Made by a program: the position numbers and the translations under genes. A stretch of 12,991 bases of DNA from a virus: the UHGV virus genome UHGV-0043381. One strand, given 5' to 3'. A model generated the notes under the pieces. The model was not told where the DNA came from. It did not search any database and saw only the letters and a program-made list of their open reading frames with translations. Of this stretch, positions 50 through 12,941 are shown piece by piece (position 1 is the stretch's first letter; the number at the start of each line of letters is the position of its first letter).

Positions 50-634
50 CTATTCGATAATGGGTACTGTTGGCCATTCAATATCCGGTGCAGTTGTTGT
101 ATTAACACGGTTCAGCAACACCCGATATTTTTTCCAGGCTTCCAGCAATGAGGTTTCTTCCTCCGTTGCGATCTCCAGATCTACAGCATCCTGAAGTGGC
201 GCTATATGCTCACTGGCTACCTGCATCAGGCTGTTTTTTGTTTCTTCCGCCTCCCGGATCCGGAACAGTTTTTCTGCTTCCGTATCCTTCACCCAGGCTG
301 TGCCGTTCCACTTCTGATATTCCCCTTCCGGCGATAACCAGGTGACATTTTCCGGTAACGAGCCAAGTTCAGAAATAAATAACGCGTCGCCGGAAGCCAC
401 GTCATAGACGGTTTTTCCCCGATGATCTTCAACGAGATGCCACGATGCCTCATCACTGTTGAAAACAGCCACAAAGCCAGCCGGAATATCTGGCGGTGCA
501 ATATCGGTACTGTTTGCTGGCAGACCTGTATGAGGCGGAATATATGCGTCACCTTCACCAATAAATTCATTAGTTCCGGCCAGCAGATTATAAATTTTTA
601 TGGTCCGTGCTTGTTCACTCATTCTGAATGCCAT
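50..634 (-). CDS. tfa: Tail fiber assembly protein Tfa (lambda-type), 194 aa
   Basis: ORF-track protein [44 protein letters not shown]... matches my recollection of lambda Tfa along its whole length. ATG at 634-632 overlaps the TAA of the upstream frame (TAATG), as at lambda stf/tfa. Stop TAG at 52-50. Confidence 0.9.
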
Positions 635-2316
635 TATGCAAGCCTCACAATATAGTTAAATGCGATATTTTTGACGGTGTTTTCCGCGTTACCAGCAGCG
701 TTAACGGTGATGGTGTGTCCATGTGAGCCAATCGCAACCGAGTGCGTATGAGCACCAATATCCGTACCGATTTCGGTAAGGTAAACCCCGTTTTTGTTTC
801 GCTTACGTGGCATGCTGGCCACTGGCTTTCCGTAGACGGATGCCCCTTTAATGGGGATCACCCGGAACAGCCCATGTTTTTTCGAGCGTTCATACACAAT
901 GGTCGGGTCAATCCCGCCAGTATCCCAGCAGATACGGGATATCGACATTTCTGCACCATTCCGGCGGGTATAGGTTTTATTGATGGCCTCATCCACACGC
1001 AGCAGCGTCTGTTCATCGTCGTGGCGGCCCATAATAATCTGCCGGTCAATCAGCCAGCTTTCCTCACCCGGCCCCCATCCCCATACGCGCATTTCGTAGC
1101 GGTCCAGCTGGGAGTCGATACCGGCGGTCAGGTAAGCCACACGGTCAGGAACGGGCGCTGAATAATGCTCTTTCCGCTCCGCCATCACCTCAGCATCCGG
1201 ACGTTCGCCAATTTTCGCTTCCCATGTCTCACCGAGCGTGGTGTTCACGAAGGTTTTACGTTTTCCCGTATCCCCTTTCGTCTTCATCCAGTCTTTGACA
1301 ATCTGCACCCAGGTGGTGAACGGGCTGTACGCCGTCCAGATGTGAAAGGTCACACTGTCCGGCGGCTCAATCTCTTCACCGGATGACGAAAACCAGAGAA
1401 TGCCATCACGGGTCCAGATCCCGGTCTTTTCGCAGATATAACGGGCATCAGTAAAGTCCAGCTCCTGCTGGCGGATGACGCAGGCATTATGCTCGCAGAG
1501 ATAAAACACGCTGGAGGGGTCATCCGGCGTCCATTTGAGGCCAAACGGCGCCTCTTTGTCGCCAAATTTAAGATACTGCTCCTCCCCGCAGTGCGGGCAG
1601 GCAACATGAAAACGCATAAAATGCGGGGATTCACTGGCTGCACGCTCAATCTGGCAGGTGCCTCTCACTTTGGGCGTGGAGCCACGGATGGACTTTGGCC
1701 AGACCGAGCCTTCAATACGTTTGTCGCCAAGGAACGTCGGAGAGCCTTCCTGTTCAATATCCTCATCAAAGGCAGCAAGTTCATCATAACCCGCCACATC
1801 CACCGACTTTTCACGGTAGTTTTTTGCCGCTTTACCGCCCAGGCACCAGAAGCCACGACCATTGGAAAAACGCTTCATGGTGAGCGTGTTATCCCGGTGC
1901 TTTTTGCCATACCACGGAGCCAGCGCCAGCAGCGACGGAATATCGCGGATGGTCGGCTCAACGTGGGTTTTCATAAAGTTCTCGGCATCACCATCCGTCG
2001 GCAACCAGATAAGGGTGTTGCGCTGCTTATGCTCTATAAAGTAGGCATAAACACCCAGCAGCATTTTGGAATAACCGACACGGGCAGACTTCACCACATT
2101 CACCTCACGGATGTAGTCGCTGCCCATCGCATTCATGATGGCCCGCTGAAAGGGCAGTGTTTCCCAGCGCCCTTCCTGGTATGCGGATTCTTTTGGGAGA
2201 TAGTAATTGGCATCCGCCCATTCAACGGCGGTCTGTGGCTCCGGCCTGAACAGTGAGCGAAGCCCGGCGCGGACAAAATGCCGCAGCCTGTTAACCTGAC
2301 TGTTCGATATATTCAC
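634..2316 (-). pseudogene. A: Terminase large subunit gpA, C-terminally truncated (about 519 lambda-like codons) and fused in frame to about 41 unrelated codons, probably the 3' end of a side tail fiber gene
   Basis: Translation [56 protein letters not shown]... follows lambda gpA (641 aa in lambda) through ...[11 protein letters not shown], then diverges to [41 protein letters not shown] before the stop; joint near nt 759. Walker-A-like KSARVGYSK retained. GTG start at 2316 overlaps the nu1 3' end as in lambda. The frame ends exactly where tfa starts. Confidence 0.85.
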
Positions 2317-2836: not shown

Positions 2837-3040
2837 TGTTCATTCCACGGACAAAAACAGAGAAAGGAAACGACAGAGGCCAAAAAGCTCGCTTTCAGCA
2901 CCTGTCGCTTCCTTTCTTTTCAGAGGGTATTTTAAATAAAAACATTAAGTTACGACGAAGAAGAACGGAAACGCCTTAAACCGGAAAATTTTCATAAATA
3001 GCGAAAACCCGCGAGGTCGCCGCCCCGTAACCTGTCGGAT
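2837..3040. other. cos site: cosB with Nu1-binding R3/R2/R1 elements (about 2850-2975), cosN 12-nt cohesive-end sequence at 3014-3025, cosQ-side flank to about 3040
   Basis: 3014-3025 aggtcgccgccc is the reverse complement of the lambda left cohesive end GGGCGGCGACCT and is followed by cgtaacctgt, the reverse complement of the lambda right terminus ACAGGTTACG. R-site-like motifs are visible as reverse complements (gagaaaggaaacg, cgcttcctttct, gaagaagaacggaaacg). Orientation is reverse-complement relative to the lambda map. Confidence 0.85.
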
Positions 3041-3224
3041 CGCCGGAAAGGACCCGCAAAATGATAATAATTATCATCTGCATGTCACAACGTGCATCTA
3101 CGCCATCAAACCACGTCAAATAATCAATTATGACGCAGGTATCATATTAATTGATCTGCATCAACTTAACGTAAAAACAACTTCAGACAATACAAATCAG
3201 CGACACTGAATACGGGACAACCTC

Positions 3225-3458
3225 ATGTCAACGAAGAACAGAACCCGCAGAACAACAACCCGCAACATCCGCTTTCCTAACCAAATGATTGAACAAATTA
3301 ACATCGCTCTTGATCAAAAAGGGTCCGGGAATTTCTCAGCCTGGGTCATTGAAGCCTGCCGCCGGAGACTGTGCTCAGAAAAAAGAGTTTCTCCTGAAGC
3401 AAACAAAGAAAAGAGTGACATTACTGAATTGCTCAGAAAACAGATCAGACCAGATTGA
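3225..3458 (+). CDS. Small basic hypothetical protein, 77 aa, possibly DNA-binding (ribbon-helix-helix-like N-terminus); cos-proximal, AT-rich
   Basis: ATG at 3225, uninterrupted to 3458. Arg/Thr-rich N-terminus MSTKNRTRRTTTRNIRFPNQMIEQINIALDQKG... resembles RHH/Arc-type regulators, judged by eye only. Weak SD. A similar small ORF sits near cos in DLP12-type prophages, from memory. Confidence 0.5.
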   Translation: MSTKNRTRRTTTRNIRFPNQMIEQINIALDQKGSGNFSAWVIEACRRRLCSEKRVSPEANKEKSDITELLRKQIRPD

Positions 3459-3517
3459 AGCAATTTAGATAATCGTGCAGACTACGCCTCCCCTCATATC
3501 ACATGGAAGGTTTATCT

Positions 3518-3928
3518 ATGGATCAGGTAGTCATTTTTAAACAAATATTTGATAAAGTTCGAAACGATTTAAACTATCAATGGTTTTATTCTGAGCTAAA
3601 ACGTCACAATGTCTCACATTACATTTACTATTTAGCCACAGAGAATGTTCATATTGTATTAAAAAATGATAATACAGTGTTATTAAAGGGCCTAAAAAAC
3701 ATTGTGTCTGTCAAATTTTCAAAGGATAGGCATCTTATAGAAACGACCTCTAATAAGCTGAAATCCAGAGAGATCACATTTCAGGAATACAGAAGAAACC
3801 TTGCTAAAGCAGGAGTTTTTCGGTGGGTTACAAATATCCACGAACAAAAAAGATATTACTATACCTTTGATAATTCATTACTCTTTACTGAAAACATACA
3901 GAGCACATCACAAATGTTTCCACACTAA
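3518..3928 (+). CDS. ybcV: DUF1398-family protein (YbcV/YdfO-like), 136 aa from the SD-supported ATG
   Basis: Protein [58 protein letters not shown]... matches my recollection of the K-12 DLP12 YbcV family. SD ggaagg lies 7 nt before the ATG at 3518; the ORF track extends to an upstream ATG at 3503, which lacks an SD. Strongly AT-rich relative to flanking phage genes. Confidence 0.65.
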
Positions 3929-4033
3929 ACCATAACGTCCGGTTTCTTCTACCCCTGCACCGGACTGGCTGACATGAAGAGCAACCCCGCGTTCAGTTGA
4001 CGCGTTAATAACCCGGTGTGCATCGTTTTTGAT

Positions 4034-4098
4034 TATTCCCGCACACTCACGCAGAAGGAATTCCCCGTCAGGCTACGGTCATGGTTAATGCGGGAATA
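4034..4098. repeat. Perfect 10-bp inverted repeat pair (tattcccgca ... tgcgggaata) flanking a 45-bp spacer, in the convergent gap between ybcV and rha
   Basis: Read directly: 4034-4043 and 4089-4098 are exact reverse complements; the spacer contains gaattc. No adjoining T-run in terminator orientation on either strand. Confidence 0.4.
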
Positions 4099-4230
4099 CG
4101 GCGACGATACAGCGCATGATGTGTCAGGCTTGAATACCTTTATCCGTTAAAAGGGATATCAGTTAAGTTATCCCGTGCAGGGTATAAGCCATTATCAAGC
4201 CCCCCGTAGATAGGCTTTGTAATGACATCT

Positions 4231-4755
4231 TCAATTAATCAGCAGTTCAGGCTGTGTCACCTGCAAGATGTATTCATGCTCGACAGCCAGGACACGCTTC
4301 TCTTTCTTCCGTTCGTTCATTAACCGACTGCCGATCGTACCTTTCAGCTTTGAGCGTGTTTCTTTGATGGCGTAGCGGTGCTGCATTTCTTCGCCAATTG
4401 CCATGCGGCGGCTCAGTTGTTCTGCCATCCAGTTGAATGCTGCGATATAGCTCTCCTTGATTGCCGCAGCAGCTTTCCCGGTGAACCCCATCACAACCAT
4501 GATCCAGCCATCTTTCGTCAGGCTGTACATCGGGCGAACCTTGCCCTGCTCATCGATATAATCAGCCGACGCAAAATTGCGTTGGCTAAACTCACGCGAG
4601 CAATCAGCCTTAACCTGCTCGATTTTCCTGAGAACATCACCGTGTCGCTTGCCGAAGTACTTGGCAATTTTTCTGGATGTGGTAACGACCTCTCCGTTTT
4701 TGGCTTGCACCATTTCTCGGAAGTCGAAGGCTGGAATAACTGAATGATTATTCAT
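4231..4755 (-). CDS. Rha-family phage regulatory protein (Phage_pRha-like), 175 aa from the first plausible ATG
   Basis: Motif ...EVVTTSRKIAKYFGKRHGDVLRKIEQ... near the N-terminus is typical of the phage Rha family as I remember it. The ORF-track frame extends upstream to 4998 through a non-ATG start; I place the start at ATG 4755-4753, preceded by aaagg. Confidence 0.65.
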   Translation of the reverse strand: MNNHSVIPAFDFREMVQAKNGEVVTTSRKIAKYFGKRHGDVLRKIEQVKADCSREFSQRNFASADYIDEQGKVRPMYSLTKDGWIMVVMGFTGKAAAAIKESYIAAFNWMAEQLSRRMAIGEEMQHRYAIKETRSKLKGTIGSRLMNERKKEKRVLAVEHEYILQVTQPELLIN

Positions 4756-4894
4756 AGCGTCTTTACCTTTTAGAAAGTGAGCCTGTCTCACAGAAAAGCC
4801 GCCCGAGAGAGGTCGCCACCTATAACGGCATTTCTCAGGCTCGCTTACTGAAAGGCTCTCGTTAATATGCGCGTGAGATGCGCTGTGAAATTCA

Positions 4895-4922
4895 GATATA
4901 AAAAGCCCCGCGAATGCGAGGC
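4895..4922 (-). terminator. Putative intrinsic terminator downstream of Rz/Rz1 (minus strand)
   Basis: Minus-strand hairpin gcctcgc-(attc)-gcggggc, 7-bp stem with one mismatch, followed by TTTTTATATCTG; sits between the Rz stop (5098) and the rha start (4755). Confidence 0.45.
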
Positions 4923-5097
4923 TAAATCCTGGTATTTGTAATGAACTGGCTCTTATCTCAACGCAGCCCCTTACTGCGCGCCAGATGCTCAATATCAAGC
5001 ATCAGCAATGAGATGTTTAATCTGGATTTACTCCAGAAGTGATCACCACCCTGTCTACAGAGCCAGATGTGAAGGATGATGAGTAAAATTATCGCTA

Positions 5098-5565
5098 TCA
5101 TCGAAGGCATTGCGTCCTAATGTATTCCTGAAGCGTTCTCAGTGCTGTTTGGTCGCGGATAATTCCGTCCCGGATATCGAGAACGTTTCGTCCAGCAACT
5201 GGAGAGAGTTCGACGGTGGCATCATTGCCCATGCCGGAGGCGCTGGAGGTTTCGGCAGAGGATGGCACAGGGCATTTTCCTTTGACGAGCACCCTGCCAC
5301 CATTATCAAGCTTCCGCAGAAGAGCATCATTTTCAGCTTTCGCATCAGCTAACTCCTTCGTGTATTTTGCATCGAGCGCAGCAACATCACGCTGACGCAT
5401 CTGCATGTCAGTAATTGCCGCGTTCGCCAGCTTCAGTTCTCTGACATTTTTGTCGCGCTGGGCTTTGTAGGTAATGGCGTTATCACGGTAATGATTAACA
5501 GCCCATGACAGGCAGACGATGATGCAGATAACCAGAGCGGAGATAATCGCAGTTACTCTGCTCAT
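5098..5565 (-). CDS. Rz: Rz i-spanin, 155 aa; N-terminus lambda-Rz-like, C-terminal half divergent
   Basis: [40 protein letters not shown]... matches the lambda Rz N-terminus (TM anchor). ATG at 5565-5563 overlaps the endolysin stop (ATGA). The ORF-track start at 5577 is a GTG extension that I reject. Confidence 0.85.
5139..5345 (-). CDS. Rz1: Rz1 o-spanin lipoprotein, embedded in the +1 frame of Rz, 68 aa
   Basis: [22 protein letters not shown]... has a lipobox (VAGC) followed by a proline-rich segment [16 protein letters not shown]; entirely inside Rz in another frame, the classic Rz/Rz1 arrangement. Confidence 0.75.
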
Positions 5566-6059
5566 TGCTGCCCCCACAAACAGACTTCACGCTCAATCTC
5601 ACGGCGAGTCATCAGCCCTTTCCATTGCTTACCGCCAGCATATGTCCAGCGACGTAGCTGATCACATGCGCCTTTGATATCGCCCTGGTTTATTTTGCGA
5701 AGAAGCGTCGATGTTCTGAAATTGCCAGCACCCACGTTGTAAACGAATGAGTAAAGAGCGCCGCGCATTGTTTCCGGTATATCGACTTTGATGTACGGGT
5801 TAATTTGTCTGGCGACCGTGGCAAGGTCTTTATTCAAGAGTGTTTTGCATTCTGCTTTGGTATACGTTTTACCGAGCATGATGTCTTTTCCTGTATGCCC
5901 GTGACATACAGTCCATACACCAACAATATCTTTGTATGGTATGTAGCTGACACCTTCCAGACCATCGTTACCACTTGGGCCAGTAATTAACACTGATGCT
6001 ATAGCAATTGCTCCGCCACCAATAGCAGCAGCAACGGCTTTTCGTAATGATGGAGGCAT
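5562..6059 (-). CDS. R: SAR endolysin (phage 21 R-type lysozyme with N-terminal signal-anchor-release domain), 165 aa
   Basis: [59 protein letters not shown]... matches my recollection of R21/RrrD. Gly/Ala-rich SAR segment; catalytic E35, D44, T50 present by count. ATG at 6059-6057 overlaps the holin stop (TAATG). Confidence 0.9.
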
Positions 6060-6274
6060 TATTCACCTCTCGCAGCCTTGCGCTTATCTTCTTTAATCTT
6101 GAAATAAAGGTTTGTCAGGTACGTCAGCAGGCCAAATACCAGGCTACCCAGCACTCCAATTGCCGCCCACTGTGAGGGCGTGACTTTATCGAGCAGCTGT
6201 AAAAACCAGTAACCGGCACTACCTGCTGAGGTGCCATAGGCGACACCCGTTGTTAACTTATCCATGGATTTCAT
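6059..6274 (-). CDS. S: Class II holin (S21-type pinholin) with dual-start motif MKSMDK, 71 aa
   Basis: [71 protein letters not shown] matches the S21/EssD family. Two in-frame ATGs at 6274 and 6265 (holin/antiholin dual start); SD-like gaggtgggg upstream. The ORF-track start at 6319 is a TTG extension that I reject. Confidence 0.88.
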
Positions 6275-6699
6275 AACCCCACCTCGCAGACAAAGCGGGT
6301 GTAAATTGAGGGAATACAACGTATCGCAAAAAAGCAGAAACGTAACAGACTCGGAGTCAGTGAATAACTCAGGTATTGAGTTATCAGCTAATATCGAGAC
6401 TCAAAAAATGGAAAAACCAGCTCGACGGCGGGTTTAAGCTGTGTGACGAAGTAACCACTCTTAACAGCATAACCAATTTTTTACGTACGTAAACCACTGA
6501 ATGATATTTATGAGAATGCTACCGAGTGTTCAAAACTCCACCACAAATACATAAGAAAACCTTAACAAATAACCAATAAATAATTTCCAGCGTTATTTTT
6601 AGCCAATTTAAATTGAACCTTCAAATTATAGAGCACTTATAAATAACAGCCATTAATATAAATTGGCTAATAGATTTATTTTTATTCAGCCAAGAGCCA

Positions 6700-6863
6700 T
6701 GAATAGGATTCGATAGAAAAAAGTTCAGATAAAAATAGAGATCTACTTCACAAATTAAACGAGAAACTAAAACTTACATCTTGAAATAATCACATTGATT
6801 AGATGAATATTTATCGCGCAGTGACATCATTTTTTAATAATAGTTCAAAAAAAAGGGCTCACG
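6700..6863 (+). promoter_or_regulatory. Putative nmpC promoter with OmpR-box-like repeats (ttacatcttgaaataatcacat), weak -10, SD aaggg
   Basis: Sequence at about 6770-6800 resembles the ompC C1 OmpR site TTTACATTTTGAAACATCTAT from memory. TTGAAA at 6781-6786; AT-rich 540-bp leader; a 12-bp perfect palindrome caatttaaattg at 6604-6615 lies further upstream. Confidence 0.35.
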
Positions 6864-7946
6864 ATGAAAAAATTAACAGTGGCAATTTCTGCTGTAGCTG
6901 CATCAGTACTGATGGCGATGTCTGCTCAGGCAGCTGAAATTTATAATAAAGACAGTAACAAGCTGGATCTGTACGGGAAAGTTAATGCTAAGCACTACTT
7001 CTCCTCTAATGATGCAGATGATGGTGATACTACTTATGCCCGTCTTGGCTTCAAAGGTGAAACCCAAATCAACGATCAACTGACTGGTTTCGGTCAGTGG
7101 GAATATGAATTCAAAGGCAACCGCGCTGAATCTCAAGGTTCCTCCAAAGACAAAACCCGTCTTGCATTTGCAGGCCTGAAATTCGGTGACTACGGCTCAA
7201 TCGATTACGGCCGTAACTACGGTGTAGCATACGACATCGGTGCGTGGACTGACGTTCTGCCAGAATTCGGTGGCGATACCTGGACCCAAACAGATGTATT
7301 CATGACTGGTCGCACCACAGGTGTTGCAACTTATCGTAACAACGACTTCTTTGGTCTGGTTGATGGCCTGAACTTTGCAGCTCAGTATCAGGGCAAAAAT
7401 GACCGAAATGAAGTAACTGAAGCTAATGGCGATGGTTTCGGTTTCTCAACTACTTATGAGTATGAAGGATTCGGCGTGGGTGCAACCTATGCTAAATCTG
7501 ATCGCACTAATAATCAGGTTATCTACGGTAACAACGGTCTGAATGCTTCTGGTCAAAATGCTGAAGTATGGGCAGCTGGTCTGAAATATGATGCGAACAA
7601 CATCTATCTGGCCACCACCTATTCTGAAACCCAGAACATGACTGTTTTTGGTAATAACCATATTGCCAACAAAGCACAAAACTTCGAAGCTGTTGCACAA
7701 TATCAGTTCGACTTCGGCCTGCGTCCATCCGTTGCTTACCTGCATTCTAAAGGAAAAGACTTGGGTGTTTGGGGTGATCAGGACCTGGTTGAATATGTTG
7801 ATGTAGGTGCAACCTATTACTTCAACAAAAATATGTCCACTTTTGTTGACTACAAAATCAACCTGATTGATAAGAGCGATTTCACGAAAGCATCTGGCGT
7901 TGCTACCGATGATATCGTTGCTGTAGGTATGGTTTACCAGTTCTAA
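6864..7946 (+). CDS. nmpC: Outer-membrane general porin of the OmpC/OmpF family (NmpC/OmpD-type), intact, 360 aa
   Basis: Signal peptide [23 protein letters not shown] followed by [24 protein letters not shown]... and C-terminal ...VGMVYQF (terminal Phe typical of OM beta-barrels); matches my recollection of the DLP12 NmpC family. Not IS-interrupted, unlike the K-12 copy. Confidence 0.92.
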
Positions 7947-8134: not shown

Positions 8135-8518
8135 TTAATTAGAGTTATTAACAACGATATCCATCTCTAACCGGATATCTAATGCCATTAACATCCCTTC
8201 AATTATGCCCTCAGCCTTCTGTAACCTTTTCCCGATATAACCATCAGAGCAGCAATGCTTACCTGCCAGTGACATGAATGTCATACCGACTACATAATAA
8301 TCTACTAATAAATCGTGCAAATCGCTGTTGTTCTTTTTCAGACGGGCCATGCACCCGCAAATGATCATAGCGTCATCGTCACAACATTGCGGGCGAGATT
8401 TTACTTTTGAAGTAATTAATCCCTTAAAACCGGCGGCAATGGACGACCAGGTCACATCTTCATGATTATTAGCCGCCCACGCTCCCCAACGCTCAAGAAC
8501 CATCTGAATATCACGCAT
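8135..8518 (-). CDS. Q: Late-gene antiterminator Q (phage 21/82-type, DLP12 QuuD-like), 127 aa
   Basis: [62 protein letters not shown]... matches my recollection of QuuD, with Cys-rich zinc-binding region. ATG at 8518-8516 has GGAG 7 nt upstream; the ORF-track start at 8533 is a TTG extension that I reject. Confidence 0.85.
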
Positions 8519-8603
8519 CAACTTACTCCACAAAAATCAGACCAGAACGCCAATTACAAGCAAAAATCAATAAAACAGTATTAGTTGATTGTTATCTCTG
8601 ACT

Positions 8604-8740: not shown

Positions 8741-9103
8741 TCATTCATTCCCCATTTCGGTGATGGTCAGTTCCAGCCTCCCACCTTTGGTAACAGGCAT
8801 CTTCACAACGCGGTAATCAACGACCTGAGCATCATCCAGCCAGAAACCTGCTTTAGTGAGTGCGTCAAAAGCGGCTTTTTGCAGATTATCCAGGTCACGG
8901 CGACGGCGATCCGGCATGTGGCACTCAATGCGGATTTTCACAGGCATAGTCAGGCCGATATCCAGCATTGCGTTTTTAATGATTCGGGCGACGTTATCGC
9001 GGTATGCCTGCCCCTCTGCGCTGACGTGCGTGCGCCCGCGATTATGGCGGTAATAGCGATTATTACTCGGAGGCCAGGGTAATGTGATGCTGTAGGTATT
9101 CAC
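8741..9103 (-). CDS. rusA: Holliday junction resolvase RusA, 120 aa
   Basis: [51 protein letters not shown]...[44 protein letters not shown]... matches E. coli RusA; GTG start at 9103 preceded by aagg. Confidence 0.93.
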
Positions 9104-9132
9104 GCCTTAATAACCCCCTCTTTCAGCCAGAT
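9104..9132 (-). pseudogene. 3'-terminal remnant (about 10 codons, ...[10 protein letters not shown]-stop) of a ybcO-like nin-region gene, abutting the deletion joint
   Basis: The minus-strand frame ending at 9100 encodes ...[12 protein letters not shown], which matches my recollection of the YbcO C-terminus, and its stop overlaps the rusA start. Further upstream that frame is merely antisense to bet, so the 72-aa track ORF 9100..9318 is a chimera. Confidence 0.45.
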
Positions 9133-9666
9133 ATCATCAATGAAAACCAGCAGTTTGATGGCATGGACTTTGAGCAGGACAATGAATCCTGCACATGCCG
9201 GATTTACCGCAAAGACCGCAATCATCCGATCTGCGTTACCGAGTGGATGGATGAATGCCGCCGCGAACCATTCAAAACCCGCGAAGGCAGAGAAATCACG
9301 GGGCCGTGGCAGTCGCATCCCAAACGGATGTTACGGCATAAAGCCATGATTCAGTGTGCCCGTCTCGCCTTCGGATTTGCTGGTATCTATGACAAGGATG
9401 AAGCCGAGCGCATTGTCGAAAATACCGCATACACTGCAGAACGTCAGCCGGAACGCGACATCACTCCGGTTAACGATGAAACCATGCAGGAGATTAACAC
9501 TCTGCTGATTGCCCTGGATAAAACATGGGATGACGACTTATTGCCGCTCTGTTCCCAGATATTTCGCCGCGACATTCGCGCATCGTCAGAACTGACACAG
9601 GCCGAAGCAGTGAAAGCTCTTGGATTCCTGAAACAGAAAGCCACTGAGCAGAAGGTGGCTGCATGA
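9133..9666 (+). pseudogene. bet: Lambda Bet (Red-beta recombinase), 5'-truncated; roughly the N-terminal 85 codons missing
   Basis: From about 9133 the frame reads IINENQQFDGMDFEQDNESCTCRIYRKDRNHPICVTEWMDECRREPFKTREGREITGPW...KATEQKVAA, colinear with the C-terminal two thirds of lambda Bet (261 aa) as I recall it. Upstream of about 9130 similarity stops and the frame closes at TGA 9085-9087. No start or promoter context. Confidence 0.85.
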
Positions 9667-10343
9667 CACCGGACATTATCCTGCAGCGTACCGGAATCGA
9701 CGTGAGAGCTGTCGAACAGGGGGATGATGCGTGGCACAAATTACGGCTCGGCGTCATCACCGCTTCAGAAGTTCACAATGTGATAGCAAAACCCCGCTCC
9801 GGAAAAAAGTGGCCTGACATGAAAATGTCCTACTTCCACACCCTGCTGGCTGAGGTTTGCACCGGTGTGGCTCCGGAAGTTAATGCTAAGGCGCTGGCAT
9901 GGGGAAAACAGTACGAGAACGACGCCAGAACTCTGTTTGAATTCACTTCCGGCGTGAATGTTACTGAATCCCCGATCATCTATCGCGACGAAAGTATGCG
10001 TACCGCCTGCTCTCCCGATGGTTTATGCAGTGACGGCAATGGCCTTGAGCTGAAATGCCCGTTTACCTCCCGGGATTTCATGAAGTTCCGGCTCGGTGGT
10101 TTCGAGGCCATAAAGTCGGCTTACATGGCCCAGGTGCAGTACAGCATGTGGGTGACACGAAAAGATGCCTGGTACTTTGCCAACTATGACCCGCGTATGA
10201 AGCGTGAAGGCCTGCATTATGTCGTGGTTGAGCGGGATGAAAAGTACATGGCGAATTTTGACGAGATGGTGCCGGAGTTCATCGAAAAAATGGACGTGGC
10301 ACTGGCTGAAATTGGTTTTGTATTTGGGGAGCAATGGCGATGA
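9663..10343 (+). CDS. exo: Lambda exonuclease (Red-alpha, Exo), intact, 226 aa
   Basis: [94 protein letters not shown]... matches lambda Exo at full length; ATG overlaps the bet stop (ATGA). Confidence 0.93.
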
Positions 10344-10750
10344 CGCATCCTCACGATAATATCCGGGTAGGCGCGATCACTTTCATCTACTCCGTTACCG
10401 TCACCGAGGCGTTAGAACTTGATACTGCCAAGAATGGTTACATCCTCCTGGTTCAGGACGCAGAGCCAAACTTCGATATAAATGGCAACTCTCCGGTAAC
10501 TCCGGATGGTTGGGTTATAGTGCCGAAGAAACTAACCGCTGAGAACGGCGCTAAGGGTGTGCTATCCGGTGAATTTTCAGAAACTACGTTTATAAGCTGC
10601 CCGGAATGCTTTGGTGATGATGATTGCGAAACTTGTGACGGCAGCGGAAGAATCGAAATCAAGGTTCCAGTCAGTTGGACAACTATCAAAACTATTTGGG
10701 CTAAAGGGTGTGAGTACTTTTCAATAGTAGCACCGCAGCAAGATGGGTGA
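10334..10750 (+). CDS. Hypothetical protein, 138 aa, with C-terminal CxxC-x5-CxxCxGxG zinc-ribbon-like motif; translationally coupled to exo
   Basis: ATG at 10334 preceded by gggga and overlapping the exo 3' end by 10 nt. Motif ...[21 protein letters not shown]..., where CxxCxGxG is the DnaJ cysteine-rich repeat signature. The N-terminus [19 protein letters not shown] may resemble the start of a lambda exo-adjacent small ORF, but I cannot confirm it. Confidence 0.6.
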
Positions 10751-10876
10751 TGAAAACAAGTATTTATAACTTAAAAGCATTAAAAAATCGCTTATAGATC
10801 AAAAGAAATCTACGTCAAATATTACTATATTTCAATGTGTTATAATTACCCCGTCCATAAAATGGGGGGACACAAA

Positions 10877-11119
10877 ATGTTCAAACGCTGCATCACCAAG
10901 TGTGGAAGCACACCTGACATCCAAGCTTTTATTAATGAAGATGGTAAGCTTGTTGTTGAGAGGAGTGGTCCTTTTATTAGCAAACAACTTATCATTACCT
11001 CTCCAGCGGAGATGGCCGGGGAATGGATAGTTTCTGAACCAGAGGAGTTGCACATCCCGCTTCCTTATGGCCCTCAGGGACTGATTTATAACCGTTATGT
11101 TCAGAAGGAGGCGGGTTGA
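10877..11119 (+). CDS. Hypothetical small protein, 80 aa from the SD-supported ATG (94 aa from ATG 10835)
   Basis: ORF-track frame 10835..11119. ATG at 10877 has gggggga 7 nt upstream; a perfect TATAAT at 10841-10846 in an AT-rich gap suggests its own promoter, in which case 10835 would be inside the leader. No family recognised (contains CITKC). Confidence 0.5.
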   Translation: MFKRCITKCGSTPDIQAFINEDGKLVVERSGPFISKQLIITSPAEMAGEWIVSEPEELHIPLPYGPQGLIYNRYVQKEAG

Positions 11120-11398
11120 CAATGTCAGGCATAACATCGCCGAGAAATCGAAAGAAAAACAGAACAAGGTAAACGTTGACCTTGCAGCATCAGGCATGGA
11201 GTACAGAGAGCGCCTTAACATACCTGTTATCACTGAGCAGGTATCATGAGAGCAACCTGAGCACTCACGCGAGTATTTCATGGAGCGCATCAGATACTAT
11301 CGCGAGCAGTCGTTAAACATGCCCAAGGGAAGCAACCCATGGTATATCGATATGGATGAACAGAACGCCAAGAAGTAAACGCAATTTGAACGAATGCG

Positions 11399-11426
11399 AA
11401 CCCGCCGAGTGCGGGTTTTCTTTTAT
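11399..11426 (+). terminator. Intrinsic terminator (7-bp stem aacccgc/gcgggtt, loop cgagt, T-run)
   Basis: Read directly at 11399-11417, followed by ttcttttatctg; about 20 nt after the stop of the small frame ending at 11378. Confidence 0.55.
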
Positions 11427-11624
11427 CTGAACTCGCTACGGCGAGTTTTGTTTTATGGCGATGATAAATGCACTTCCGAGTTACAGGTGAATAGAATGGA
11501 GAACCATTCAACAGAGTTATCGAAGCCGAGAACATCAGCGACTGCTATGACCACTGGATGCTGTGGGCGCAGATAGCACATGCAGACGTAACCAATATTC
11601 GAATTGAAGAACTGAAAGAACACC

Positions 11625-11652
11625 AAGCCGCCTGATGGCGGTTTTTTCTTGC
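11625..11652 (+). terminator. Intrinsic terminator 25 nt upstream of the xis start
   Basis: Stem aagccgcc (11625-11632) / ggcggttt (11637-11644) with one G-U pair, loop tgat, then a T-run tttttctt. Confidence 0.55.
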
Positions 11653-11674
11653 GTGTAATTGCGGAGACTTTGCG

Positions 11675-11893
11675 ATGTACTTGACACTTCAGGAGTGGAA
11701 CGCTCGCCAGCGACGCCCAAGAAGCCTTGAAACAGTTCGTCGATGGGTGCGCGAATGCAGGATATTCCCTCCTCCGGTTAAGGATGGAAGAGAATATCTG
11801 TTCCACGAATCAGCGGTAAAGGTTGACTTAAATCGACCAGTAACAGGTAGCCTTTTGAAGAGGATCAGAAATGGGAAGAAGGCGAAGTCATGA
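11675..11893 (+). CDS. xis: Excisionase Xis (lambda), 72 aa
   Basis: MYLTLQEWNARQRRPRSLETVRRWVRECRIFPPPVKDGREYLFHESAVKVDLNRPVTGSLLKRIRNGKKAKS is essentially lambda Xis; SD ggag 8 nt upstream; 3' end overlaps int as in lambda. Confidence 0.93.
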   Translation: MYLTLQEWNARQRRPRSLETVRRWVRECRIFPPPVKDGREYLFHESAVKVDLNRPVTGSLLKRIRNGKKAKS

Positions 11894-12941
11894 GCGCCGG
11901 GATTTACCCCCTAACCTTTATATAAGAAACAATGGATATTACTGCTACAGGGACCCAAGGACGGGTAAAGAGTTTGGATTAGGCCGAGACAGGCGAATCG
12001 CAATCACTGAAGCTATACAGGCCAACATTGAGTTATTTTCAGGACACAAACACAAGCCTCTGACAGCGAGAATCAACAGTGATAATTCCGTTACGTTACA
12101 TTCATGGCTTGATCGCTACGAAAAAATCCTGGCCAGCAGAGGAATCAAGCAGAAGACACTCATAAATTACATGAGCAAAATTAAAGCAATAAGGAGGGGT
12201 CTGCCTGATGCTCCACTTGAAGACATCACCACAAAAGAAATTGCGGCAATGCTCAATGGATACATAGACGAGGGCAAGGCGGCGTCAGCCAAGTTAATCA
12301 GATCAACACTGAGCGATGCATTCCGAGAGGCAATAGCTGAAGGCCATATAACAACAAACCCTGTCGCTGCCACTCGCGCAGCAAAATCAGAGGTAAGGAG
12401 ATCAAGACTTACGGCTGACGAATACCTGAAAATTTATCAAGCAGCAGAATCATCACCATGTTGGCTCAGACTTGCAATGGAACTGGCTGTTGTTACCGGG
12501 CAACGAGTTGGTGATTTATGCGAAATGAAGTGGTCTGATATCGTAGATGGATATCTTTATGTCGAGCAAAGCAAAACAGGCGTAAAAATTGCCATCCCAA
12601 CAGCATTGCATGTTGATGCCCTCGGAATATCAATGAAGGAAACACTTGATAAATGCAAAGAGATTCTTGGCGGAGAAACCATAATTGCATCTACTCGTCG
12701 CGAACCGCTTTCATCCGGCACAGTATCAAGGTATTTTATGCGCGCACGAAAAGCATCAGGTCTTTCCTTCGAAGGGGATCCGCCTACCTTTCACGAGTTG
12801 CGCAGTTTGTCTGCAAGACTCTATGAGAAGCAGATAAGCGATAAGTTTGCTCAACATCTTCTCGGGCATAAGTCGGACACCATGGCATCACAGTATCGTG
12901 ATGACAGAGGCAGGGAGTGGGACAAAATTGAAATCAAATAA
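11871..12941 (+). CDS. int: Tyrosine integrase Int (lambda), 356 aa
   Basis: MGRRRSHERRDLPPNLYIRNNGYYCYRDPRTGKEFGLGRDRRIAITEAIQANIELFSGHKHKPLTARINSDNS...HELRSLSARLYEKQISDKFAQHLLGHKSDTMASQYRDDRGREWDKIEIK matches lambda Int at full length, including the catalytic-region motifs. Confidence 0.95.
   Translation: MGRRRSHERRDLPPNLYIRNNGYYCYRDPRTGKEFGLGRDRRIAITEAIQANIELFSGHKHKPLTARINSDNSVTLHSWLDRYEKILASRGIKQKTLINYMSKIKAIRRGLPDAPLEDITTKEIAAMLNGYIDEGKAASAKLIRSTLSDAFREAIAEGHITTNPVAATRAAKSEVRRSRLTADEYLKIYQAAESSPCWLRLAMELAVVTGQRVGDLCEMKWSDIVDGYLYVEQSKTGVKIAIPTALHVDALGISMKETLDKCKEILGGETIIASTRREPLSSGTVSRYFMRARKASGLSFEGDPPTFHELRSLSARLYEKQISDKFAQHLLGHKSDTMASQYRDDRGREWDKIEIK

What the first reader, a model, noticed from the sequence alone, without database searches (positions are those of the whole stretch)
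3225..4755. AT-rich cos-proximal accessory island: small basic ORF, DUF1398 protein and convergent Rha-family regulator, with no Bor
Between Rz and cos, lambda carries bor and a few small ORFs. Here the slot holds a Rha-family regulator on the lysis strand, and on the opposite strand a DUF1398 (YbcV-like) protein of unknown function and a 77-aa basic, possibly RHH-type protein right next to cos. The composition is visibly more AT-rich than the flanking phage genes, arguing for separate acquisition. I find no Bor lipoprotein. Rha proteins are known from phage phi80 to affect infection outcome in IHF-deficient hosts; DUF1398 has no established function. The set could be a superinfection-control or host-modulation module.
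Basis: partly seen in the sequence, partly recalled or inferred. Interest (0 to 1): 0.55.

Follow-up and report, generated by a model that had tools for sequence, protein, structure and literature searches.

The report
Ordinary lambdoid prophage right-end accessory genes
The stretch between the lysis genes and the DNA-packaging site of this defective E. coli prophage holds three already catalogued phage genes in their usual places, so it is an ordinary mosaic, not a new three-gene module.

Summary
The three ORFs exist and belong to the families named: DUF3950 (YlcI/YnfO, 3225-3458 +), DUF1398 (YdfO/YbcV, 3518-3928 +) and Rha (4231-4755 -). There is no Bor.

They are not one island. A recombination joint at about 4117-4139 separates two unrelated modules.
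- Module 1 (cos, ylcI, DUF1398) is lambda's own right end. It is 96% and 80% identical in DNA to lambda, which carries the same two genes on the same strand. Only the DUF1398 gene is AT-rich (31.5% GC), and lambda's copy is too (32.9%).
- Module 2 (Rz, orf50, terminator, rha) is the classical rha cassette. The protein is 73% identical to the founding phi80 Rha, and the leader is identical to phi80's over the 105 bases compared. The module is 99% identical to a P22-like phage that has neither other gene. Rha GC is 49.5%.

Co-inheritance fails. The ylcI-DUF1398 pair is in 2359 of 5426 complete E. coli genomes, this rha in 333, and the whole interval in 113. DUF3950 is in 155 phage records and DUF1398 in 43.

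DUF1398 matches the solved YdfO structure (2HH8), which has no informative fold relatives. A ribbon-helix-helix fold for YlcI is plausible but unproven.

Verdict: already known, low interest.

The parts
2837..3060 (.). cos region. cosB side lies next to the Nu1 start. The cohesive-end sequence AGGTCGCCGCCC is at 3014-3025. A cosQ-like stretch is at about 3030-3056.
   Evidence: Read directly from the sequence. Window 2837-3387 is 96% identical to lambda DNA. The cosQ assignment rests on my recollection of lambda's right end and is an inference.
3225..3458 (+). ylcI/ynfO-type gene, 77 aa, DUF3950. The first about 50 aa are nearly invariant across relatives and the C-terminal tail is variable. 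Candidate ribbon-helix-helix DNA binder.
   Evidence: Pfam PF13132 at 74.8 bits. RefSeq names it 'YlcI/YnfO family protein'. Alignment A1. The AF2 model has helices 19-32 and 34-53. 97.7% DNA identity to K-12 Qin ynfO-ydfO.
3518..3928 (+). ydfO/ybcV-type gene, DUF1398, 136 aa (141 aa if the ATG at 3503 is used). GC 31.5%.
3929..4116 (+). Remnant of the lambda-type ybcV-bor spacer. The bor promoter predicted in HK629 (TGGACA-15-TACAAT) reads CGGTCA-15-TACGGC here.
   Evidence: 80% identity to lambda ends at 4116. Alignment A3. HK629 promoter annotation.
4117..4139 (.). Mosaic joint between the lambda-type cos-proximal module and the phi80/P22-type rha module.
   Evidence: Lambda homology ends at 4116 and phiv205-1 homology begins at 4139.
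4231..4755 (-). rha, 174 aa, with the Phage_pRha domain at about residues 25-111. An alternative GTG start at 4791 corresponds to the phi80 annotation.
   Evidence: Pfam PF09669 at 98.3 bits. 73% identity over the full length to phi80 Rha. 37% identity to P22 rha. 100% identity to the phiv205-1 Rha.
4756..4903 (-). rha leader. The 105 bases compared are identical to the phi80 rha leader.
   Evidence: Alignment A4. RNA fold z-score is -1.9.
4894..4923 (-). Intrinsic-terminator-like hairpin AGCCTCGC-ATTC-GCGGGGCT followed by TTTTTAT. It lies between the lysis cassette and rha.
   Evidence: Terminator scan. Conserved in phi80 and P22. Annotated as a putative terminator in phi80. Forms in the minimum-free-energy fold.
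4958..5110 (-). orf50, a small protein with a hydrophobic N terminus that overlaps the Rz stop. Function unknown. It travels with the rha module.
   Evidence: PHROG 11822 at E 2e-37. RefSeq hypothetical protein. Present in phiv205-1.
5098..5577 (-). Rz spanin. The embedded Rz1 lipoprotein ORF is at 5139-5345. This is the left boundary of the interval.
   Evidence: Pfam Phage_lysis at 107.6 bits. ORF list.

Best explanation
The interval is the ordinary right-end accessory region of a lambda-type prophage that is defective here. It is made of two independently assorting modules joined at about 4117-4139.

Module 1 is lambda's native cos-proximal pair, transcribed away from cos. It consists of ylcI/ynfO (DUF3950) and ydfO/ybcV (DUF1398), here as the Qin-type allele without the ybcW insert found in lambda and DLP12.

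Module 2 is the phi80/P22-type post-lysis cassette: Rz, orf50, intrinsic terminator, conserved leader, rha. It occupies the place where lambda has bor, which is why Bor is missing.

How it most likely works (inferred):
- rha is a late-operon gene. It is reached by Q-antiterminated transcription that reads through the hairpin at 4904-4923.
- Its product is a DNA-binding regulator. The phi80 orthologue blocks phage DNA synthesis when host IHF is absent.
- ylcI and ydfO are expressed from their own signals in the lysogen or cryptic prophage.
- YlcI probably acts as a small dimeric ribbon-helix-helix DNA binder.
- YdfO is a soluble cytoplasmic alpha/beta protein that is dispensable for lytic growth and has a stress-linked host phenotype.
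- The two proteins do not need each other.
For: Family assignments.

Lambda has the same layout:
- Lambda carries YlcI, YbcW, DUF1398 and Bor in the same slot and on the same strand.
- Window 2837-3387 is 96% and 3442-4116 is 80% identical to lambda. Window 4139-5098 is 94-99% identical (two pieces, the 909-base one 99.5%) to the P22-like phage phiv205-1, which lacks ylcI and DUF1398.

The rha cassette is the classical one:
- phi80 has Rz, terminator, rha, opposite-strand ORFs, then cosQ and cos.
- The Rha protein is 73% identical to phi80 Rha.
- The terminator is conserved in phi80 and P22, and the leader is identical to phi80's over the 105 bases compared.
- P22 rha is in the same slot.

The modules assort independently:
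- In complete E. coli genomes the pair is in 2359 of 5426, rha in 333 and the whole interval in 113.
- In 80 IMG/VR loci whose DUF1398 is at least 96% identical, Nu1-YlcI-DUF1398 is near constant. About 26 carry Rha and 42 carry Qin-type cargo instead.
- DUF3950 is in 155 phage records and DUF1398 in 43.
- BP-4795 has DUF3950 alone.
- Distant DUF1398 homologues sit without YlcI.

Function and expression:
- Lambda CRISPRi and literature scoring list lambdap78 (DUF1398) and bor as non-essential (PMC10695390).
- ybcV and ydfO transcripts are measurable and regulated in K-12. YdfO overexpression was reported to raise oxidative-stress resistance (PMC7660256, PMC4077768).
- The DUF1398 model matches the soluble NMR structure 2HH8.
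Against: - No + strand sigma-70-like promoter was found upstream of ylcI by the consensus scan. Independent expression is therefore inferred from K-12 orthologues, not shown here.
- The ribbon-helix-helix assignment did not reach significance in any test.
- No exact IHF consensus site lies in the rha leader, so IHF control is not demonstrated for this copy.
- This prophage lacks the immunity and replication regions and most structural genes. Late-operon expression of rha may therefore be negligible in this strain.
Confidence: 0.85

Rival explanations
1. The three genes form one co-acquired host-modulation or superinfection-control module.
For: - The genes are physically adjacent, and 113 E. 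coli genomes plus the viable phage PhiR70_1 carry the whole interval at 98-100% identity.
- None of them is a structural or lysis gene.
Against: - A mosaic joint lies between DUF1398 and rha.
- Each module occurs far more often without the other.
- The two modules differ in GC.
- There is no meaningful PADLOC hit.
Confidence: 0.04
2. ylcI-ydfO is a toxin-antitoxin-like or regulator-effector pair. A ribbon-helix-helix antitoxin or autorepressor would be followed by its toxin or effector in one operon.
For: - The order is a small basic RHH-like gene followed 46-59 bp later by a second small gene on the same strand. The 46-48 bp spacing holds in 74 of 76 loci.
- There is a weak PHROG hit to a HicB-like antitoxin at E 0.007.
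Against: - In lambda and DLP12 an opposite-strand gene (ybcW) separates the two.
- At least 112 phage records have DUF3950 without DUF1398, for example BP-4795.
- DUF1398 homologues of 50% identity or less have no YlcI nearby.
- The DUF1398 fold resembles no known toxin.
- YdfO has been overexpressed and its structure solved as a soluble protein.
Confidence: 0.06
3. DUF1398 and/or YlcI are head or packaging accessory factors. This is suggested by the PHROG 413 label 'head protein', by the 'putative envelope protein' annotation, and by constant proximity to cos and the terminase genes.
For: - PHROG 413 is in the category 'head and packaging'.
- YlcI always sits next to the start of the packaging module, whether that is lambda Nu1/A or HNH/TerS/TerL.
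Against: - Lambda DUF1398 is non-essential by CRISPRi and by the literature.
- The genes are on the strand opposite the late operon.
- The protein has no signal peptide or membrane segment and is a soluble globular fold.
- DUF1398 also occurs in non-phage chromosomal contexts and in defective prophages that have lost all the head genes, as here.
- The labels look like annotation by position.
Confidence: 0.04

Closest known systems
Phage lambda right end (Rz - bor - lambdap78/YbcV - lambdap79/YbcW - unannotated YlcI-like ORF - cos) and its K-12 relics, DLP12 (borD-ybcV-ybcW-ylcI-nohD) and Qin (ydfO-ynfO-nohA)
   Same: - The genes have the same order, strand and distance from cos.
- DNA identity to lambda is 96% and 80%, and 97.7% to Qin ynfO-ydfO.
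- The DUF1398 gene is AT-rich in lambda too.
   Different: - There is no ybcW between the two genes. This is the Qin-type arrangement.
- bor and its putative promoter are replaced by or degraded next to the rha module.
phi80 rha cassette (Rz - terminator - rha - opposite-strand ORFs - cosQ/cos), the locus where Rha was defined
   Same: - The protein is 73% identical over its full length.
- The terminator is conserved and the leader is identical over the 105 bases compared.
- It occupies the same slot after Rz on the late strand, convergent with opposite-strand ORFs before cos.
   Different: - The opposite-strand genes of phi80 are unrelated to DUF1398 and DUF3950, with no Pfam hits.
- The window has an extra orf50 between Rz and the terminator.
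P22 rha (orf201) and P22-like phage phiv205-1
   Same: - rha follows Rz/Rz1 and precedes the packaging genes.
- phiv205-1 carries the identical Rha protein and 99% identical DNA for Rz-orf50-rha.
   Different: - These are headful-packaging phages with no cos, no ylcI and no DUF1398.
- P22 Rha is only 37% identical.
YdfO, PDB 2HH8 (structural-genomics NMR structure, function unknown)
   Different: Nothing material. It is the same protein family and allele type.

Membership tests
DUF1398 (PF07166; YdfO/YbcV/YcgX) | A full-length match to the family profile above the curated cut-off. | tested here: met
   157.6 bits against a cut-off of 22, covering profile positions 1-119 of 119.
DUF1398 (PF07166; YdfO/YbcV/YcgX) | The fold of the solved member 2HH8. 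| tested here: met
DUF3950 (PF13132; YlcI/YnfO) | A match to the 30-residue family profile above the cut-off. | tested here: met
   74.8 bits against 25, residues 21-50. PHROG 949 at E 8e-34.
Ribbon-helix-helix (Arc/MetJ/CopG) superfamily, for YlcI | A beta-strand, helix, G-x-S/T turn, helix unit that is detectable by sequence or fold similarity to known RHH proteins. | tested here: inconclusive
   - The pattern NIRFP / NQMIEQINIALDQ / KGSGNFS / AWVIEACRRRL fits by eye.
- AF2 gives helices 19-32 and 34-53 with a disordered N terminus.
- No Pfam RHH hit at E<=10.
- No PDB profile hit.
Rha family (PF09669), phi80 rha orthologue | A Phage_pRha domain plus full-length similarity to phi80 Rha. | tested here: met
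   98.3 bits against 29.9. 73% identity over 173 aa, E 2e-100.
Rha family (PF09669), phi80 rha orthologue | Late-operon position directly after the lysis cassette, behind a terminator. | tested here: met
Rha family (PF09669), phi80 rha orthologue | Inhibits phage growth or DNA synthesis in IHF-deficient hosts. | not testable with these tools
   This is a phenotype known only from phi80 and P22 genetics (citing Mozola and Friedman 1985; the annotation note). No exact IHF consensus lies in the leader.
Bor lipoprotein | Any ORF or remnant similar to lambda Bor. | tested here: not met
   tblastn with lambda Bor finds no hit in the window at E<=1e-4, while it finds Bor in lambda and in DLP12-type loci.
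Type II toxin-antitoxin pair (RHH antitoxin plus toxin) | Obligate adjacency and co-orientation of the two genes across relatives. | tested here: not met
   ybcW is inserted between them in lambda and DLP12. DUF3950 occurs without DUF1398 in at least 112 phage records. DUF1398 occurs without DUF3950 in distant homologues.
Known anti-phage defence systems (PADLOC) | A match of any of the proteins to a defence-system model. | tested here: not met
   The only hit is a weak Csx23 match for DUF1398 at E 0.013 and 13.5 bits.
Moron (independently expressed accessory gene) | Its own promoter and terminator, and a composition that deviates from the backbone. | tested here: inconclusive
   The composition criterion is met for DUF1398 only. 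The simple scan finds no + strand promoter upstream of ylcI and no terminator after DUF1398. Expression of the K-12 orthologues is reported.

The most novel reading that the evidence does not exclude
The constant partner of YlcI/YnfO may be the cos or packaging-module boundary, not DUF1398. It is found next to lambda-type Nu1/A and next to HK97-type HNH/TerS/TerL alike, always reading away from cos. From my own knowledge, the right end of lambda DNA is the first to enter the cell. On that basis YlcI, with DUF1398 where it is present, could be the first gene exposed on injection. It could be an RHH DNA binder that acts at the genome end, or an early-entry or lysogen-expressed host-modulating function. 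That would be a real but uncharacterised role for genes present in lambda itself.
Probability: 0.08. Interest if true: 0.45.

Novelty: already known. Interest (0 to 1): 0.1.

Why it matters
It matters little for discovery. The window shows textbook lambdoid mosaicism, with the classical phi80 rha cassette swapped in for bor next to lambda's own right-end ORFs.

The residual value is as a reminder about two gene families. DUF1398 and DUF3950 are present in lambda itself, and this allele pair is in about 43% of complete E. coli genomes, yet neither has a known function. The popular labels 'head protein' and 'envelope protein' for DUF1398 are unsupported.

Tried and rejected
- Known RNA families: Rfam finds nothing in the interval. 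The only hit is IS009 at 93-291.
- Defence-system models: nothing meaningful in PADLOC.
- IHF sites in the rha leader: no exact consensus.
- A surviving bor promoter that would drive antisense RNA over rha: the -10 element is degenerate, TACGGC.
- The 17-bp palindrome ATGATAATAATTATCAT beside cosQ as a possible YlcI operator: it has no exact match in the lambda locus L003 or in BP-4795, so it is not a conserved partner.
- orf44 (4016-4150) as a gene: no family hit, and pN/pS 0.66 on very few changes.
- Literature: there is no functional study of DUF1398 or DUF3950 beyond expression and overexpression notes. Nothing newer than the phi80 and P22 genetics turned up for Rha.

Full report
**Setting**

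The window is a defective lambdoid prophage of E. coli, read in reverse orientation. These features were identified from the ORF list and Pfam:

| Feature | Coordinates | Strand |
|---|---|---|
| Tail-fibre assembly gene | 50-634 | - |
| Terminase large-subunit gene, truncated and fused to a tail-fibre 3' end | 634-2316 | - |
| Nu1 | 2291-2836 | - |
| Cohesive-end sequence AGGTCGCCGCCC | 3014-3025 | . |
| The interval in question | 3225-4755 | both |
| Rz, with Rz1 embedded | 5098-5577 | - |
| Endolysin | 5562-6059 | - |
| Holin | 6059-6319 | - |
| Porin gene | 6864-7946 | + |
| Q | 8135-8533 | - |
| rusA | 8741-9103 | - |
| Partial bet, exo, xis, int | 9163-12941 | + |

The cohesive-end sequence was read. 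The immunity and replication regions and almost all structural genes are missing.

**Observation check**

- The three ORFs are real, and their family assignments are far above the Pfam cut-offs: DUF3950 74.8 bits, DUF1398 157.6 bits, Phage_pRha 98.3 bits.
- RefSeq annotates the identical DNA in strain HS30-1 as 'YlcI/YnfO family protein', 'DUF1398 domain-containing protein' and 'Rha family transcriptional regulator'.
- tblastn with lambda Bor finds nothing in the window.
- The composition claim holds only for the DUF1398 gene. It is 31.5% GC, against ylcI 44.0%, Rha 49.5% and the window 46.8%.

**Lambda has the same genes**

Reading from Nu1 and cos it has a YlcI-like ORF, then YbcW on the other strand, then a DUF1398 gene (lambdap78, labelled 'putative envelope protein'), then Bor, then Rz.
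- The lambda YlcI-like ORF is 94.5% identical over 55 aa.
- The lambda DUF1398 protein is 77% identical, and its gene is 32.9% GC.
- At the DNA level, window 2837-3387 is 96% identical to lambda and 3442-4116 is 80% identical.
- The gap between those two segments corresponds to lambda's ybcW insert.
- The pair in the window is 97.7% identical to ynfO-ydfO of the K-12 Qin prophage.

AT-richness of DUF1398 is therefore an old property of this lambdoid gene. It is not evidence of acquisition here.

**The rha side is a different module**

- Homology to lambda stops at 4116. From 4139 to 5098 the window is 94-99% identical to the P22-like phage phiv205-1, the 909-base main piece at 99.5%. That phage has Rz, orf50 and Rha but no ylcI and no DUF1398.
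- The Rha protein is 73% identical over its full length to the founding phi80 Rha.
- phi80 has the same architecture: Rz, a putative terminator, rha (annotated 'DNA synthesis inhibition in IHF- hosts'), opposite-strand ORFs, then cosQ and cos.
- The hairpin at 4904-4923 with its T tract is conserved in phi80 and P22. The leader downstream of it is identical to phi80's over the 105 bases compared.
- P22 rha sits in the same place after Rz/Rz1.
- The remnant of the ybcV-bor spacer is still present at 3929-4116. The bor promoter predicted in HK629 is degenerate in it.

In short, the classical rha cassette has replaced bor.

**Co-inheritance**

| Collection | ylcI + DUF1398 pair | this rha | whole Nu1-Rz interval |
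|---|---|---|---|
| 5426 complete E. coli genomes, at least 80% coverage | 2359 | 333 | 113 |

- Among 80 IMG/VR loci with a DUF1398 at least 96% identical, Nu1-YlcI-DUF1398 is nearly constant. The cargo between DUF1398 and the endolysin varies. About 26 loci have Rha, and 42 have a Qin-type set with a cold-shock protein gene and a different spanin.
- Among phage records, DUF3950 occurs in 155 and DUF1398 in 43.
- BP-4795 has DUF3950 alone, between Rz and an HNH/TerS/TerL packaging module.
- DUF1398 homologues of 50% identity or less have no YlcI, Nu1 or Rz nearby. These are in Kluyvera, Pseudocitrobacter and Citrobacter, and include chromosomal copies in Escherichia and Shigella.

**What the proteins are**

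*DUF1398*
- It is essentially YdfO, whose NMR structure is 2HH8 (phmmer E 1e-88).
- The family is small and enterobacterial. There are 201 cluster representatives among 1.84 billion, and genuine genome hits are confined to Enterobacteriaceae.
- It has no signal peptide or membrane segment, so the labels 'envelope protein' and 'head protein' (PHROG 413) look positional.

*YlcI*
- It has a nearly invariant N-terminal 50 residues and a variable tail.
- AF2 gives two helices after a disordered basic N terminus.
- The pattern fits a ribbon-helix-helix protein, but no sequence or fold comparison reached significance.

*Purifying selection*
- pN/pS is about 0.3-0.4 for all three genes. The estimate is based on few differences for Rha and on some error-prone contigs.

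**Function**

- Lambda CRISPRi and earlier deletion work score DUF1398 and bor as non-essential (PMC10695390).
- K-12 ybcV mRNA depends on PdhR (PMC7660256).
- ydfO is strongly induced by an ionic liquid, and its overexpression was reported to raise oxidative-stress resistance (PMC4077768).
- For Rha, the only functional knowledge is the phi80 and P22 phenotype in IHF-deficient hosts (and the annotation).
- I therefore infer that rha is a late-operon regulator reached by Q-antiterminated read-through.
- I also infer that ylcI and ydfO are independently expressed accessory genes, with YlcI a probable DNA binder. None of this is shown for this copy.
- The promoter scan found no + strand promoter upstream of ylcI, and no exact IHF site lies in the rha leader.

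**Verdict**

The genes, their families, their positions and even the cassette boundaries are all already catalogued in lambda, phi80, P22 and K-12. The finding is a correct description of ordinary lambdoid mosaicism with an incorrect inference of a three-gene module. The only open question is the unknown function of DUF1398 and DUF3950, which does not arise from this window.

Noticed in passing
window 634-2316 (-): The terminase large-subunit ORF keeps the gpA ATPase and nuclease domains. It ends in a tail-fibre-like C terminus directly upstream of a tail-fibre assembly gene (50-634). A deletion has therefore removed all the head and tail genes, so this prophage cannot package DNA.
   Followed up: partly
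window 8741-9666: rusA (8741-9103, -) abuts a partial bet ORF (9163-9666, +). The whole immunity, replication and nin region that an intact relative has (strain HS30-1, locus L001) is missing here.
   Followed up: partly
window 93-291 (-): A full-length Rfam match to IS009 (RF02111) at 225 bits against a gathering score of 117. It lies inside the tail-fibre assembly gene.
   Followed up: no
window 4958-5110 (-): A 50-aa ORF with a hydrophobic N terminus overlaps the Rz stop codon. It matches PHROG 11822 (function unknown) and travels with the rha cassette in phiv205-1, but it is absent from phi80.
   Followed up: partly
window 3061-3088: A 17-bp perfect palindrome, ATGATAATAATTATCAT, sits next to the cosQ-like sequence. 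It overlaps a - strand promoter-like site (GTGACA-16-TATCAT, 10 of 12 matches) that points toward cos and Nu1. An exact copy is present in 49 of 154 fetched loci but not in the lambda locus or BP-4795.
   Followed up: partly
window 4751-4957; hits H105-H107: The terminator and the start of the rha leader recur in other E. coli genomes upstream of different cargo genes, namely a KilA-N domain protein and a GIY-YIG nuclease. This suggests a conserved boundary element in front of a variable post-lysis slot.
   Followed up: no
loci L091-L110, L114, L116, L121, L126-L128 (genome contigs); many 3.5-kb ENA contigs: Lambda right-end sequence, 100% identical, appears in assemblies labelled Pseudomonas, Kitasatospora, Brevibacillus, Flavobacterium and others. 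It turns up as contigs of about 3.5 kb or 48.4 kb. These look like lambda control-DNA contamination, not real homologues.
   Followed up: partly
window 6450-7946: An OmpC/NmpC-type porin gene (6864-7946, +) with a very AT-rich upstream region (29% GC at 6450-6900) lies between Q and the holin, on the strand opposite the late operon, as in DLP12.
   Followed up: no
window 3096-3206 (+): A 37-codon ORF between cos and ylcI is conserved at 92-100% in lambda and related loci. It is annotated as a hypothetical protein in one lambda record. Its conservation may only reflect the 96% DNA identity of the cos flank.
   Followed up: no
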